Below are positions 1 to 33,781 of a DNA stretch of 64,000 bases, piece by piece; the first letter of the stretch is position 1; every line of letters starts with the position of its first letter. Source of the DNA: a virus (taxonomy: Duplodnaviria; Heunggongvirae; Uroviricota; Caudoviricetes); the IMG/VR virus record IMGVR_UViG_2609460332_000008; one strand, given 5' to 3'. The notes under the pieces were generated by a model. The model saw nothing but the letters and a program-made list of their open reading frames with translations. It did not search any database and was not told where the DNA came from. A program made the translations under genes and the position numbers.

Positions 1-206
1 TTTATGCTCTTAACCAGGCAGAAGGAGTCGAGTTTGGGACTGTAACGGAAAAAGACGGTGTCTATAGCGCGACAGTAACTTCAAAACGAGCTGGTAAGAT
101 TACTATCGGTGTTAAATCTGATAGTCATGATTTCTCAGGTGTTAAGAAAGAAATCACCTTTATTGAGGACCGGCAGCAGGTTACATTCTCTCAGTTTGAA
201 GCCAGC
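1..206 (+). pseudogene. Host Ig-like-repeat adhesin gene (invasin/intimin-like), upstream segment, interrupted by the Mu-like prophage; gene start lies outside the window
   Basis: Open frame runs to position 206 and resumes in the same frame at 33777 once the prophage and one TSD copy are removed; the TGA at 207-209 is created by the Mu end. Confidence 0.75.
202..206. repeat. 5-bp target-site duplication CCAGC, copy at the Mu right end
   Basis: CCAGC immediately outside the Mu-type terminus TGAAGCGGCGCACGAAAAACGCGAAA; identical pentamer at 33777..33781. Confidence 0.85.
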
Positions 207-320
207 TGAAGCGGCGCACGAAAAACGCGAAAACGTTTCACGATAAATGCGAAAAATTTAATTTTCGCGCTTCAAACGAAACAGCGGCATTAACCGCTGT
301 TTTTTTATTCATTAAGTGGG
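207..320. promoter_or_regulatory. Mu right end (attR) with R1-type transposase-binding sequence
   Basis: Begins TGAAGCGGCGCACGAAAAACGCGAAAACGTTTCACGATAAATGCGAAAA, matching the Mu R1 sequence as I recall it. Confidence 0.8.
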
Positions 321-321
321 A

Positions 322-1059
322 TCACTTCGGGTAGGGCTGAATCCTGAATAGCTTAGTGTTTAGGCGCTTTTTTGCGCGCTTGTTCAGGAATCTGATGTAG
401 CGATACTGATTAAATTTGTGTACCACGGCCCGCTCCTTATTAGCCCGCAAATACTCGCCTCGTTGTCCTCCACGCTTAATCGCGTTCATCGTTATCTCGT
501 GATACCACTCGCCGTCCAGCTCGTAGAACGTGCTTTCATGGCTACCAATAAAATCAAAATTCGACGCCTGATACACAACGCCTGCGCGTCCGCAGCGTTC
601 GTCTGCAAAGGACTGAACCCACTCCACTGACGGATACAATAACCTGATGGTTTTTAGCGCATAGCTGATGGCCCGTGATTCAGAGTTGCGGGGCATGTCG
701 TCGTGTAGCCACATGCGGTTCAGTTCCATATAGCCCCGGTTATCCGTTTCCAGCACAACACGACGCCCTGAGTTGGGGTTAAGGGCATATCCCCACTGAA
801 GAACGCCAACCAGATCACGTCCGCTGAATACGCCAAGATGCAGGTAGGAGTTATTCACAAAACGGCGGGAATAGTGTTTTGTCTGAATGATTGTGCGGGC
901 CAGCCAGCAGGATATGGTTTCAACGCGCAGCTCCTTTGAACCATAGCCGACAATCCGGCCTTCATACTCAATAACGCAGGGTTTTGTCAGAATGCGTGAT
1001 TTCTTCTCTTTTCCCACAATACAGCTCCGTGGGATGCTCTTTGGCATTCGATATGACAA
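322..1059 (-). CDS. mom: Mom-like DNA modification protein; true start may be an internal GTG near 1017, giving 231 aa
   Basis: Last gene before the Mu right end, overlapping com upstream as in Mu; start position inferred. Confidence 0.7.
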
Positions 1060-1153
1060 TGTAACGTTTACAGCGAGGGCATTTAATTTCTATATGCTTA
1101 AAACCTCCTTTAAACAGTAATTTATTGCAGTTTTTACAGCGAACAGAGTCCAT
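968..1153 (-). CDS. com: Com, zinc-finger translational activator of mom
   Basis: Translation [33 protein letters not shown]... closely matches Mu Com including the CxxC...CxxC motif; AGGGGG Shine-Dalgarno before the ATG at 1153. Confidence 0.85.
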
Positions 1154-1226
1154 GATTCCCCCTGTGTAATAACCAGACATGACCGCCCGGAGGGCTGGGG
1201 GTATTTAATCACAACTGATGCAAACC

Positions 1227-1254
1227 GACGATCGATATGATGCTATCGATCGTC
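1227..1254. promoter_or_regulatory. Palindrome with two GATC sites upstream of com-mom; candidate Dam/OxyR-type control region
   Basis: GACGATCGATA-tgatgc-TATCGATCGTC, 11-bp perfect arms each carrying a GATC, about 75-100 bp upstream of the com start. Confidence 0.5.
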
Positions 1255-1317
1255 ATAAACTATACAAAATGATTATTTATAAGTACGCTCCACATCCACT
1301 TTTCATGCTGAATTGCT

Positions 1318-3135
1318 TCAGTACCGGATCATACCAACATCCATTTCAGGTGAATCCACTAACCAGAAATTTTCTGGTTTTAGCGTCAGGATTATCCAGG
1401 CTGTGTTTGTTGTTGATGGCCACGGAGGTAGCACATCATAGGTTGGATCATCACATGAATCTCTGTAACCAAACTTATTAAAAAGCGGGGCCATTGCAGC
1501 AATGAGATTCACTGCATTCAGCTCGTTACCCAGTTTGCGCTCAAACAGTGCCACGCCCGCCGTTCCTTCCACCCACACGCCGCGACTGTGACCACTGTAA
1601 CCGTAGTCAGGGTGATACGGTGTATAGCCTGTTGTTTCCCGCGTGCCAAATAAAAAACGCCCCATGTACTTACGACATCTTGCCGCTTTCCCGGTATCTA
1701 TATTGGCTATAAACAATCCACCCCAGGAAGACTGATCCAGTGCTGCCGCATTGTCATAGTGTGCCGGATGCACACCCTGACGGAATCGTCCCTCTTCTTC
1801 CACCCACATCCCCCTGATGATGCTTTGCGCCAGTTTTTCTGCACGTTTGGTGAAACCATCAAATCCGAGTCGCCCCATCAGTTCAAACAAAAACCAGATA
1901 TCAACGTTATGTTCCAGCGCGCACCATTCAGCAACAAAACTGGCGTCAAATTCGCCATTTACATAACGACCAAGACCACCTTTATATAAACCTTCTCTCA
2001 GGTCACCTTCTGTTGTCACAAGGAAAGAATCAAGCCAGACAATGCCGGATAACAACTTTTCCCGAACAATATTTACCTGCGCTCCGTCCGGATATTTCTC
2101 CAGATAAAAGGCCAAAGCATAATAAACCCATGCCGCATTCCCCAGGCGGTAATAGGTACGCGGTGACATGGCCGACAGCCTGTTAACAAAAAACTTTACT
2201 CCACCGTTTTCATCAACAAGCGCACACAAGCCCGCAACGTATCTTTCTACAGCCTCATGTCGCTGAACCATCAACGCCAGTGCTGCCAGCGCCTGGTCAT
2301 ACGTGTAACACCGATCTTTCATCACCCTGATCACTTCGGGGTCTGCGTCCTCCGGCATCCAGTAGCTACGAATGAGCAGTGGAAACTCCAGCGTTGTGAT
2401 CCACGCATTATCCTCAATCCGAATAAGACGAAACTGTTTTGCTCCCGTCCAGCAACGTCTGAAATAGAAAGTTCCGTCACTATTCAAATTAGCGTCGCCG
2501 TTAAAATACTCTCCGGTTGTATAAGCATACATTTCGACTTTATACTTTTCTGGTTCAGAAATATCGCAATATCCGTTAACTGCACCGACATAATTAAAAT
2601 CGATATTTTCTTTTATTTTTAAAGATATTGATGTATCAACAACCTCGGGTTGTTCCAGTTTCAGCATGGCTGTCGTACAACGGCTGAGTATGTCAGTAAA
2701 ATTTTCGTAACGCAGACCGGATATATTCCCGGCTATGTTTTGAATAGCTTCCAGAATCTTTACTGCTTGTTGGGATGATGATGCCGCCGTATCTGCATTT
2801 TCCTGCACCTTGTCTGCCAGTTCTTCGAATCTGCGCAAAGATTCTGGTCGTAAGTCAATTTCAGTTGCTCCCAGAAAATCATTAAGTGAACCATCGCGCG
2901 AATCCATATAGACCCGAATGACCCCGATTTCTGCAAGGCGCTGTGAACTGTGTGTCAGACGAACACTATATACTCCGGGCAGCACGGGGAAATCATATTC
3001 ACCGCTCAGAGTGGTTACGTGACTGTAAACACCTCTCAGGATCCCGGGTTGATTGTGTAGTGAGGTCAGGGTTATTGTTGCTCCGCTCAGCGGTTCTCCC
3101 ACAGGGGATGTAATTATACCTTTAAGCTGCGGCAT
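1318..3135 (-). CDS. Receptor-binding protein: Stf-like N-terminal tail-attachment domain fused to a large glycosidase-like (putative depolymerase) C-terminal domain
   Basis: N-terminal ~100 aa align with the lambda-type Stf at 61398 in this window (shared ...VY.DS..G.LNDFLGA...); the C-terminal ~450 aa are rich in Trp/Tyr/Asp, compatible with an alpha/alpha-toroid hydrolase (fold call inferred). Confidence 0.6.
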   Translation of the reverse strand: MPQLKGIITSPVGEPLSGATITLTSLHNQPGILRGVYSHVTTLSGEYDFPVLPGVYSVRLTHSSQRLAEIGVIRVYMDSRDGSLNDFLGATEIDLRPESLRRFEELADKVQENADTAASSSQQAVKILEAIQNIAGNISGLRYENFTDILSRCTTAMLKLEQPEVVDTSISLKIKENIDFNYVGAVNGYCDISEPEKYKVEMYAYTTGEYFNGDANLNSDGTFYFRRCWTGAKQFRLIRIEDNAWITTLEFPLLIRSYWMPEDADPEVIRVMKDRCYTYDQALAALALMVQRHEAVERYVAGLCALVDENGGVKFFVNRLSAMSPRTYYRLGNAAWVYYALAFYLEKYPDGAQVNIVREKLLSGIVWLDSFLVTTEGDLREGLYKGGLGRYVNGEFDASFVAEWCALEHNVDIWFLFELMGRLGFDGFTKRAEKLAQSIIRGMWVEEEGRFRQGVHPAHYDNAAALDQSSWGGLFIANIDTGKAARCRKYMGRFLFGTRETTGYTPYHPDYGYSGHSRGVWVEGTAGVALFERKLGNELNAVNLIAAMAPLFNKFGYRDSCDDPTYDVLPPWPSTTNTAWIILTLKPENFWLVDSPEMDVGMIRY

Positions 3136-25370: not shown

Positions 25371-25396
25371 AAAAAAAGCCGGATTTACCGGCTTCA
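25371..25396 (-). promoter_or_regulatory. Dyad element, copy 2, about 60 bp upstream of the endolysin gene and just after mor
   Basis: Identical to 17636..17661; minus strand reads AAGCCGGTAAATCCGGCTTTTTTT. Confidence 0.6.
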
Positions 25397-25400
25397 TTGA

Positions 25401-25850
25401 TTAAGGGCGTCGTGGCGGACGACGAACGGGGTGAGGCAGGTTCGGGGAGGGGTAAAACAAATCCGGCTGGTATTTATTGCGCTCCAGACGTCGCATCCGT
25501 TTGATGGCCTTGTAGACGGTTTTATACGTCACCCCGTAACGCTGAACCAGTTCAGGAATATTATGGCCGTTAAAATCACGCCAGATACGCATATCCCGGA
25601 CAAGATTCTCCAGAATATTCCCCCTCGGAACATAAACCTGCATCCCGCCGATATGGCGACAAATCGCCACAACCAGCTCAAGGGAATGGGCAGGGTCTGC
25701 ACCAATCCGGGCCAGTTCTTTACGCAGCAGTGCGTTCAGTTCAGAAAGTAACGCCGGATAAGCGGTGTTTTCCTGGTAATCATGAAGATATTCCAGAACG
25801 CTGTCGTCCCGAAGGTCTTCGAATAAATCCTGCTCTTTCATCTGTTTCAT
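25401..25850 (-). CDS. mor: Mor/C-family transcription activator
   Basis: Matches the Mor/C family as I recall it (DLFEDLRDD..., ...GVTYKTVYKAIKRMRRL... HTH); sits directly after gemA. Confidence 0.8.
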   Translation of the reverse strand: MKQMKEQDLFEDLRDDSVLEYLHDYQENTAYPALLSELNALLRKELARIGADPAHSLELVVAICRHIGGMQVYVPRGNILENLVRDMRIWRDFNGHNIPELVQRYGVTYKTVYKAIKRMRRLERNKYQPDLFYPSPNLPHPVRRPPRRP

Positions 25851-33776: not shown

Positions 33777-33781
33777 CCAGC
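33777..33781. repeat. 5-bp target-site duplication CCAGC, copy at the Mu left end
   Basis: Identical to 202..206. Confidence 0.85.

What the first reader, a model, noticed from the sequence alone, without database searches (positions are those of the whole stretch)
1154..1317. GATC-bearing palindrome upstream of com-mom
The com-mom pair is intact, and Mom is a known anti-restriction DNA modification function. An 11-bp perfect inverted repeat with a GATC in each arm lies upstream of com, reminiscent of the Dam-methylation and OxyR-sensitive control of Mu mom. The likely mom start, an internal GTG near 1017 giving 231 aa, lies inside com.
Basis: partly seen in the sequence, partly recalled or inferred. 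Interest (0 to 1): 0.35.

Follow-up and report, generated by a model that had tools for sequence, protein, structure and literature searches.

The report
Dam-site palindrome upstream of com-mom
The palindrome is real and conserved, and is most likely this Mu-like prophage's version of the known Dam-methylation/OxyR control site in front of the phage Mu anti-restriction gene mom, here with two GATC sites instead of three and in a phage that lacks Mu's late activator C.

Summary
Observation confirmed. GACGATCGATA-N6-TATCGATCGTC lies at 1254-1227 on the com strand, 74-101 nt upstream of the com ATG (1153). It is one of only two such repeats in 64 kb.

It is not chance. Across 17 distinct relatives its arms vary in 1 of 22 columns, against 48 of 107 in the rest of the non-coding block. 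All 18 exact matches in IMG/VR lie on contigs that carry this com-mom type.

BLAST finds no similarity to Mu upstream of com. An anchored comparison shows the Mu element: ATAG-N7-CGATCGA, then TCGATCG 18 bp on (Mu GATC I and II). E. coli agn43, the other known OxyR/Dam operator, shares this layout. Mu's third GATC is an invariant CATC here, and the pair sits about 11 bp closer to com.

The host is a complete 33.6-kb Mu-type prophage that is mosaic. It has one Mor orthologue, no C and no gin, and no C or Mor site upstream of com.

Best reading (about 0.6): a Dam-sensitive OxyR operator for com-mom that works without C. OxyR binding and the promoter position remain unresolved.

The GTG mom start at 1017 (231 aa) matches the curated Mu record.

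A new variant of a known kind; modest interest.

The parts
1227..1254 (-). 28-bp palindrome GACGATCGATA-GCATCA-TATCGATCGTC with two Dam sites: GATC I at 1251-1248 and GATC II at 1233-1230 on the com strand. Proposed core of a methylation-sensitive operator.
   Evidence: perfect inverted repeat, rarity. (1 of 22 arm columns variable against 48 of 107 elsewhere, p=2e-4). (all 18 exact matches in IMG/VR are on contigs with this com-mom type). (same sequence and spacing as Mu GATC I and II).
1248..1263 (-). ATAG-N7-CGATC (ATAGTTTATGACGATC): distal OxyR-like half-site ending in GATC I.
   Evidence: 8/10 to ATAGnTnnnAnCTAT in the same frame as Mu (7/10) and agn43 (8/10). ATAG is invariant in the window-type relatives.
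1217..1220 (-). CATC at the exact position of Mu GATC III, 13 bp after GATC II. It cannot be methylated by Dam.
   Evidence: invariant CATC in the window-type sequences, where Mu and agn43 have GATC.
1154..1282 (-). Conserved regulatory block that travels with com whatever gene lies upstream. Besides the palindrome it holds the conserved TGnTTAAAT (1211-1203), a GCCC-N3-GGGC hairpin (1195-1185) and the com SD GGGGGAA (1162-1156).
   Evidence: similarity in 46 E. coli genomes ends at about 1280-1282 when the upstream gene differs..
968..1153 (-). com, 61 aa, zinc-ribbon translational activator of mom.
   Evidence: PF10122. (73% identical to Mu Com).
322..1017 (-). mom, 231 aa from GTG 1017, SD GGAG at 1028-1025. 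SD and GUG lie in the CCCACGG...UGUGGG hairpin (1033-1013).
   Evidence: PF25680, 6e-76. (225/231 identical to Mu Mom with the same start). (hairpin). (Mu annotation).
207..260 (+). Mu-type right end (attR) with transposase-binding repeats. The prophage spans 207-33776 with a 5-bp target duplication CCAGC.
25401..25850 (-). The only Mor/C-family activator gene of the prophage, a Mor orthologue. There is no C.
   Evidence: PF08765. (63% to Mu Mor, 32% to C). (no second copy by tblastn).
25376..25394 (-). Mor-type dyad AAGCCGGTAAATCCGGCTT followed by T7, upstream of lys. A second identical copy is at 17641-17659 upstream of the I-like protease gene. There is none upstream of com.
   Evidence: exactly two copies. 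(Mu Pm has AAGCCGGTTAATCCGGCTT).

Best explanation
The palindrome is the core of a Dam-methylation-sensitive operator for the host regulator OxyR. It controls transcription of the com-mom operon of a Mu-type prophage.

It descends from the same element as GATC sites I and II of the phage Mu mom upstream region. It has the same plan as the E. coli agn43 operator: ATAG-N7-CGATC, then a second GATC 18-19 bp further on.

Proposed working, all inferred:
- When the two GATCs are unmethylated, OxyR binds across 1263-1217 and keeps com-mom off.
- When Dam has methylated them, OxyR cannot bind and the operon can be transcribed.
- Com then opens the hairpin over the mom SD and GUG start, and Mom modifies the phage DNA.

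This phage has no C activator, no C site and no Mor site upstream of com. The operator therefore cannot work as in Mu, where it sits upstream of a C-dependent promoter. It probably overlaps or directly abuts a sigma-70 promoter, as in agn43, and/or acts on read-through from the tail-fibre operon.

Shown here: the sequence, its conservation, its homology to Mu and agn43, and the absence of C. Inferred: OxyR binding, methylation sensitivity and the promoter position.
For: - Identical flanks and spacing to Mu GATC I and II, with ATAG 12 bp upstream of GATC I.
- The agn43 operator from K-12 has ATAG-N7-CGATC and GATC spacing 19+13, against 18+13 in Mu. Window, Mu and agn43 are about equally similar to one another: 34-37 of 56 anchored positions.
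- The 18-bp GATC I-II spacing is kept in divergent com-mom lineages whose downstream promoter regions differ: Mu, D108, L045, L004, L046, L003 and the window type. A shared host factor plus Dam explains this more simply than phage-specific proteins.
- The arms are the most conserved part of the non-coding block: 1/22 against 48/107 variable columns, p=2e-4.
- The palindrome is found only upstream of com: 18/18 matches in IMG/VR.
- The 37-bp OxyR consensus scores 12/20 in the same frame as Mu (12/20). Only 22 positions in 64 kb reach 12.
- Literature: three GATCs in 43 bp upstream of Mu mom, whose methylation prevents OxyR binding (Sun and Hattman 1996, as cited in PMC7549136). The two Mu PvuI sites are 18 bp apart (PMC3378877). 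OxyR/Dam switches at agn43 and P22 gtr, where GATC to CATC changes were chosen because they leave the OxyR consensus intact (PMC2909390).
- C-independence: one Mor orthologue only. Mor dyads only at lys and I. In IMG/VR, 7/7 long Mu-type contigs carry C and 0/8 long window-type contigs do.
Against: - Nothing shows that OxyR binds.
- The two proximal half-sites score only 5/10, against 7-8/10 in Mu and agn43. The OxyR consensus is loose.
- The third GATC is missing.
- A perfect 28-bp dyad is more symmetric than known OxyR sites, so it could serve another dimeric protein.
- No promoter can be placed with confidence. The tool scan finds none. My PWM candidates score no better than the best candidate in 11% of random 155-nt stretches, and equally good ones occur on the opposite strand. 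These candidates are -35 TTGTAT with -10 TAGCAT in the palindrome centre, TGATTAAAT at 1211-1203, and TAGTTT at the agn43-equivalent position.
- Without C it is unclear what confines a toxic gene to late infection.
- The relatives are close (at least about 90% identical), so the conservation test has limited depth.
Confidence: 0.6

Rival explanations
1. The palindrome is an operator for a different dimeric DNA-binding protein, phage-encoded or host, for example a repressor that keeps com-mom silent in this C-less lineage. The GATCs would be inherited from the Mu-type ancestor or would serve only as a methylation sensor for that protein.
For: The dyad symmetry is perfect over 11+11 bp, which is more than OxyR sites need. 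The proximal OxyR half-sites are weak. The lineage has lost C and its site, so the regulation has been rebuilt. L004 has a near-perfect 12-bp-arm version as well.
Against: There is only one copy per phage, with no second operator anywhere in the window or in the related contigs. The same GATC pair and ATAG element occur in Mu and agn43, where the binder is reported to be OxyR (literature). No candidate regulator gene is linked to the module, because the block travels with com only.
Confidence: 0.15
2. The palindrome acts as an RNA hairpin in read-through transcripts from the tail-fibre operon. It would be a terminator, attenuator or processing signal that insulates com-mom from late transcription.
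For: It lies 24-64 nt after the stop codon of the upstream late gene, in the same orientation. The hairpin is stable: -18.8 kcal/mol, z=-4.9. No other terminator separates the tail-fibre genes from com.
Against: There is no U tract (GGUUUGCAUC follows), so it is not an intrinsic terminator. The scan calls none on this strand. The stem is conserved by identity, with no compensatory change. Across lineages only the GATC-bearing parts and their spacing are kept, and Mu's version would be a weak 7-bp stem with a 10-nt loop at -8.5 kcal/mol. That pattern fits a DNA site and not an RNA stem.
Confidence: 0.1
3. Dam acts directly, without OxyR. The methylation state of the two GATCs changes RNA polymerase or SeqA binding at a promoter that overlaps the palindrome, which couples com-mom expression to replication.
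For: Candidate -10 hexamers lie between the GATCs, and TAnnAT is kept in all 19 window-type loci. Hemimethylated copies are abundant during replicative transposition (general knowledge).
Against: The GATCs would fall outside the -10 and -35 hexamers of every candidate. The promoter candidates are not statistically distinguishable from chance. The conserved ATAG-N7 element upstream is not explained.
Confidence: 0.1
4. A non-functional relic or a chance palindrome.
For: Close GATC pairs are not rarer than expected in the window.
Against: 0.23 such palindromes are expected per 64 kb. The arms are the most conserved non-coding stretch. The association with com is exclusive.
Confidence: 0.05

Closest known systems
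Phage Mu / D108 mom upstream region (GATC sites I-III; OxyR = MomR operator; Dam-dependent transcription)
   Same: - Position upstream of com-mom.
- ATAG-N7-(G)ACGATCGA, then TCGATCG 18 bp further on, identical in sequence and spacing.
- The downstream Com/Mom translational control hairpin is conserved.
- Mom is 97% and Com 73% identical.
   Different: - Two GATCs, not three. Site III is CATC.
- The arms are extended to a perfect 11-bp inverted repeat.
- The pair lies at -98/-80 from the com ATG, against -109/-91/-78 in Mu, about one helical turn closer.
- There is no C binding site (TTAT-N6-ATAA), no T6 run plus TAAGAT promoter, no C gene and no gin upstream.
- BLAST similarity to Mu stops about 10 nt inside com.
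E. coli agn43 (flu) OxyR/Dam phase-variation operator
   Same: - ATAG-N7-CGATC followed by a second GATC 19 bp on, against 18 here.
- GATCs embedded in TATCGATCGT and CGATCGATA contexts, identical to the two arms.
- The operator is likely to overlap the promoter or transcript start, and no phage activator is needed.
   Different: - agn43 has three GATCs (19+13) and a defined promoter (TTGTCC-17-TAGAAT, with the annotated isrC/flu 5' end at GATC I).
- Here the promoter is not defined and the third GATC is absent.
- Phase variation has not been shown for any mom.
Salmonella phage P22 gtr OxyR/Dam switch
   Same: A phage-borne modification operon controlled by GATCs inside OxyR half-sites. CATC substitutions are compatible with the OxyR consensus (PMC2909390).
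   Different: gtr has four GATCs in two pairs 13 bp apart and three half-sites that give alternative activating and repressing positions. Here there is one pair, 18 bp apart.
Mu Pm / Mor-dependent promoters
   Same: A dyad-symmetric element upstream of a phage gene. The phage's only activator is a Mor orthologue.
   Different: The Mor dyad of this phage is AAGCCGGTAAATCCGGCTT followed by T7 (two copies, at lys and I). It is unrelated in sequence to the com palindrome and absent from the com region.

Membership tests
Mu-type com-mom operon | Mom (GNAT-like DNA-modifying enzyme) preceded by an overlapping com zinc-ribbon ORF | tested here: met
   PF25680 at 6e-76 and PF10122. Mom 97% and Com 73% identical to Mu. 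com 968-1153 overlaps mom 322-1017 by 50 nt.
Mu-type com-mom operon | mom SD and GUG start sequestered in a hairpin downstream of the Com target | tested here: met
   The CCCACGG...UGUGGG hairpin is predicted. The stem is identical to Mu and the loop differs.
Mu mom Dam/OxyR operator | Cluster of GATC sites upstream of com with the Mu I-II context and 18-bp spacing | tested here: met
   GACGATCGA-N10-TCGATCG in both. The 18-bp PvuI fragment in Mu is reported in PMC3378877.
Mu mom Dam/OxyR operator | Three GATC sites within about 43 bp | tested here: not met
   Two GATCs only. The third position is an invariant CATC.
Mu mom Dam/OxyR operator | Match to the OxyR binding consensus ATAGnTnnnAnCTAT-N7-ATAGnTnnnAnCTAT | tested here: inconclusive
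   12/20 in the same frame as Mu (12/20). The distal half-site scores 8/10 and the proximal half-sites 5/10, against 7-8/10 in Mu and agn43.
Mu mom Dam/OxyR operator | Operator lies upstream of a C-activated promoter (C site centred near -43.5, T6 run, TAAGAT) | tested here: not met
   There is no C gene. There is no TTAT-N6-ATAA or CATAAYC element at the Mu spacing from any -10-like hexamer (by inspection).
Mu mom Dam/OxyR operator | Transcription depends on Dam and is repressed by OxyR on unmethylated DNA | not testable with these tools
   Needs reporter assays, EMSA or footprinting.
agn43-type OxyR/Dam switch | ATAG-N7-CGATC half-site followed by further GATCs inside the OxyR site | tested here: met
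agn43-type OxyR/Dam switch | Operator overlaps the core promoter or transcript start | tested here: inconclusive
   Candidate promoters overlap the palindrome, but they are no better than the best candidate in 11% of random stretches. The tool scan finds none.
Intrinsic (rho-independent) terminator | GC-rich hairpin followed by a U tract | tested here: not met
   Stable hairpin but no U tract. Not called by the scan.
Mor/C activator binding site | Same dyad as the phage's other activator-dependent promoters | tested here: not met
   The Mor dyad occurs only at 25376-25394 and 17641-17659. It has no similarity to the com palindrome.

The most novel reading that the evidence does not exclude
In a family of Mu-type phages that have lost the late activator C, com-mom would be controlled by an agn43-like epigenetic switch.

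- The two-GATC palindrome would overlap a constitutive sigma-70 promoter.
- OxyR would hold the unmethylated prophage copy off, heritably.
- Replicative transposition would titrate OxyR and let Dam methylate the new copies. Mom would then turn on late, or phase-variably in lysogens, with no phage activator.
Probability: 0.2. Interest if true: 0.55.

Novelty: new variant of a known kind. Interest (0 to 1): 0.3.

Why it matters
Mu mom is the textbook case of layered control of a toxic anti-restriction function: Dam, OxyR, C, Fis and Com.

This lineage keeps the Dam-site element and the Com layer but has dropped C and the third GATC. It is present in 46 of 5426 complete E. coli genomes and on 18 IMG/VR contigs.

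It is therefore a natural experiment on two questions:
- Which parts of the Mu scheme are essential?
- Can an OxyR/Dam operator alone time, or phase-vary, a DNA-modification gene?

In practice it is a simple and testable case, with two GATCs, one palindrome and no activator. The likely outcome is confirmation of a known mechanism in a slightly different layout.

Tried and rejected
- BLAST of the intergenic region against phages, in distant mode with E up to 10, found nothing. The homology to Mu appeared only in an alignment anchored on the GATCs.
- I looked for the Mu C-site geometry (ATAAYC 22 nt before a -10). In the window that spacing lands on TCTGGT, so this was rejected.
- TATTAC (1171-1166) as a -10 was rejected. 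It would leave a leader of about 6 nt without the SD, and it is disrupted in L016.
- I compared the com region with the other upstream regions of the prophage. There is no shared motif with com. The comparison did show the Mor dyads at lys and I.
- I tested GCCC-N3-GGGC as a Mor-like dyad. The spacing is 4 nt too short, so this was rejected.
- RNAalifold on the com leader showed no compensatory changes.
- Rfam search of 1-3000 gave no hit.
- Sigma-70 PWM scans (hexamer frequencies from memory) on both strands gave candidates that are no better than background.
- The classic papers were not held in the library: Bolker and Kahmann 1989, Sun and Hattman 1996, Hattman and Sun 1997. Footprint coordinates and the roles of individual GATCs in Mu are therefore taken only from secondary citations or my own memory, and I do not rely on them.
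- Aeromonas phage pAEv1818 mom has no com and no GATC cluster. It sits behind a Q antiterminator gene and a terminator-like hairpin with a T run. The element is therefore specific to the enterobacterial com-mom module.

Full report
**1. The observation**

On the strand that encodes com and mom (the minus strand), the intergenic region reads ...TTTTGTATAGTTTAT GACGATCGATA GCATCA TATCGATCGTC GGTTTGCATCAGTTGTGATTAAATACCCCCAGCCCTCCGGGCGGTCATGTCTGGTTATTACACAGGGGGAATC ATG.

The repeat finder reports a perfect 11-bp inverted repeat at 1227-1237 / 1244-1254 with a 6-bp spacer. Each arm has one GATC inside a CGATCG.

In the whole 64-kb window only two loci have a perfect inverted repeat of at least 11 bp with a spacer of 10 or less. 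Shuffled sequence gives 0.23 on average.

The closeness of two GATCs is not remarkable in itself. There are four pairs at 18 bp or less, about as expected, even though GATC overall is two-fold under-represented.

**2. com and mom**

Both genes are intact.
- Mom matches PF25680 (6e-76) and is 225/231 identical to Mu Mom.
- Com matches PF10122 and is 73% identical to Mu Com.
- com most likely starts at ATG 1153, with SD GGGGGAA. The ATG at 1180 is lost in relatives.
- The GTG at 1017, 7 nt after GGAG, is the start used in the curated Mu record. It lies in the conserved CCCACGG...UGUGGG hairpin.
- PMC7261163 numbers Mu Mom to residue 231 and reports a mass of 27,050 Da.
- PGAP prefers ATG 1047, giving 241 aa.

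**3. Context**

The window holds a complete Mu-type prophage at 207-33776.
- It has Mu-like ends and a 5-bp target duplication CCAGC.
- It is a mosaic. The early region is about 91% identical to Mu and com-mom-attR is 89% identical. The late region has no megablast match in the phage collection.
- There is no gin or G segment. A 605-aa protein with a tail-fibre N-terminal domain precedes com.
- The prophage has a single Mor/C-family gene (25401-25850). It is 63% identical to Mu Mor and 32% to C.
- A dyad almost identical to the Mor site of Mu Pm occurs exactly twice, upstream of lys and upstream of the I-like protease gene. It reads AAGCCGGTAAATCCGGCTT plus T7, against Mu AAGCCGGTTAATCCGGCTT. 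It does not occur near com.

**4. Relation to Mu**

BLAST similarity to Mu, D108 and SfMu ends about 10 nt inside com (window 1143). The intergenic region alone finds nothing.

Reading the Mu sequence and anchoring on the GATCs shows the common element:
- Mu: TATAGAAAACGACGATCGAATCAATTAAATCGATCGGTAATACAGATCGATTATG
- Window: TATAGTTTATGACGATCGATAGCATCATATCGATCGTCGGTTTGCATCAGTTGTG

ATAG, the 9-mer GACGATCGA, the 7-mer TCGATCG and the 18-bp GATC spacing are all identical. The PvuI digest in PMC3378877 reports the same 18 bp for Mu.

Mu's third GATC, 13 bp after the second, is CATC in the window. This CATC is invariant in all window-type relatives.

Relative to the com ATG the GATCs lie at -98/-80, against -109/-91/-78 in Mu. 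The pair is therefore about one helical turn closer to com.

**5. Relation to agn43**

The K-12 agn43 operator is the other known OxyR/Dam target. It reads AATAGAATAAAACGATCAATATCTATTTTATCGATCGTTTATATCGATCGATAAG.

It has the same ATAG-N7-CGATC, with GATC spacing 19+13. It contains TATCGATCGT and CGATCGATA, the sequences of the two arms.

Window, Mu and agn43 are about equally similar pairwise, at 34-37 of 56 anchored positions.

**6. Conservation**

Mom-based searches returned 44 IMG/VR loci and 3 GTDB loci.

Nineteen loci (the window included) carry the window-type upstream region, giving 17 distinct sequences. In their alignment the arms vary in 1 of 22 columns, against 48 of 107 columns in the rest of the block 1154-1282 (Fisher p=2e-4).

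The block is shared by 46 of 5426 complete E. coli genomes. Similarity ends at about 1280 when the upstream gene differs.

A pattern scan of 2.9 million viral contigs for CGATCGATA-N6-TATCGATCG found 18 contigs. All are window-type com-mom loci, with one copy each.

Across more distant lineages the 18-bp I-II spacing is kept while the sequence between the GATC cluster and com diverges. These lineages are L045, L004, L046 and L003 from Scandinavium. L003 also has only two GATCs, at -97/-79.

**7. OxyR motif**

Against ATAGnTnnnAnCTAT-N7-ATAGnTnnnAnCTAT the window scores 12/20 in the frame where Mu scores 12/20. Only 22 positions in 64 kb reach 12.

By half-site, the distal one (ATAG...CGAT) scores 8/10, against 7 in Mu and 8 in agn43. 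The two proximal ones score 5/10, against 7-8. This result is compatible with OxyR binding but does not decide it.

**8. Absence of the Mu promoter**

The C site (TTAT-N6-ATAA), the T6 run and TAAGAT are missing. This agrees with the absence of C.

In IMG/VR, 7 of 7 long contigs with the Mu-type region carry C. None of 8 long contigs with the window-type region does, and all 8 carry the window-type Mor. The search method finds only fairly close relatives of C.

**9. Where transcription starts**

This is unresolved. The consensus scan finds no promoter.

A simple PWM ranks TTGTAT-16-TAGCAT first. Its -10 lies in the palindrome centre, and TAnnAT is kept in all 19 loci. The conserved TGnTTAAAT comes later.

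Eleven percent of random 155-nt stretches score as well, and the opposite strand gives equal candidates. Read-through from the tail-fibre operon is also possible, because no terminator intervenes.

**10. Rival explanations**

- As RNA, the palindrome would form a hairpin of -18.8 kcal/mol with no U tract. Its conservation is by identity and not by compensation, which favours a DNA site.
- It is not the phage's Mor site.
- A different dimeric binder cannot be excluded.

**11. Verdict**

The element is a two-GATC, fully palindromic variant of the Mu/agn43-type Dam/OxyR operator. It sits in a Mu-type phage lineage that lacks C. Function remains to be tested.

Interest is modest.

Noticed in passing
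window 207-33776: Complete Mu-type prophage with Mu-like ends and a 5-bp target duplication CCAGC (202-206 and 33777-33781). It is inserted in an Ig-like adhesin ORF. It is a mosaic: the early region (about 91%) and com-mom-attR (89%) are Mu-like, while the late region has no megablast match in the phage collection. There is no gin or G segment.
   Followed up: partly
window 25376-25394 and 17641-17659 (minus strand): Two identical copies of AAGCCGGTAAATCCGGCTT plus T7, nearly identical to the Mor site of the Mu middle promoter. They lie upstream of lys and of the I-like protease gene. The phage has one Mor orthologue and no C, so Mor-type promoters appear to drive the late genes directly.
   Followed up: partly
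window 11289-11317: Perfect 13-bp-stem hairpin (-26.3 kcal/mol) without a U tract, in the gap upstream of the tape-measure gene. It is the only other long perfect inverted repeat in the window.
   Followed up: no
window 1154-1211 (minus strand): The region between the palindrome and com holds a conserved GCCC-N3-GGGC hairpin (1195-1185). It also holds a CCCCC run (1201-1197) that could pair with the com SD GGGGG (1162-1158). No compensatory changes are seen among relatives.
   Followed up: partly
window 1318-3135 (minus strand): 605-aa protein with a prophage tail-fibre N-terminal domain and an unassigned C-terminal 470 aa. It occupies the place of gin and the G segment. In most relatives a DUF4376 protein lies directly upstream of com instead.
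   Followed up: no
window 1017 versus 1047: RefSeq (PGAP) annotates mom from ATG 1047 (241 aa) in identical prophages. The curated Mu record and the biochemistry use the GTG start (231 aa).
   Followed up: partly
window about 38000-64000: A second, lambdoid-looking prophage region on the plus strand, judged from ORF sizes only: terminase-sized, tape-measure-sized and J-sized ORFs.
   Followed up: no
L159 (Aeromonas phage pAEv1818) 1540-1900: A mom homologue without com and without a GATC cluster. It lies directly downstream of a Q antiterminator gene and a GC-rich hairpin followed by a T run, so its regulatory logic appears different.
   Followed up: partly
L158 (E. coli plasmid pPS1T_138kb): A remnant of the window-type module (partial DUF4376 gene, com, truncated mom) sits among IS elements on a 138-kb plasmid.
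   Followed up: no
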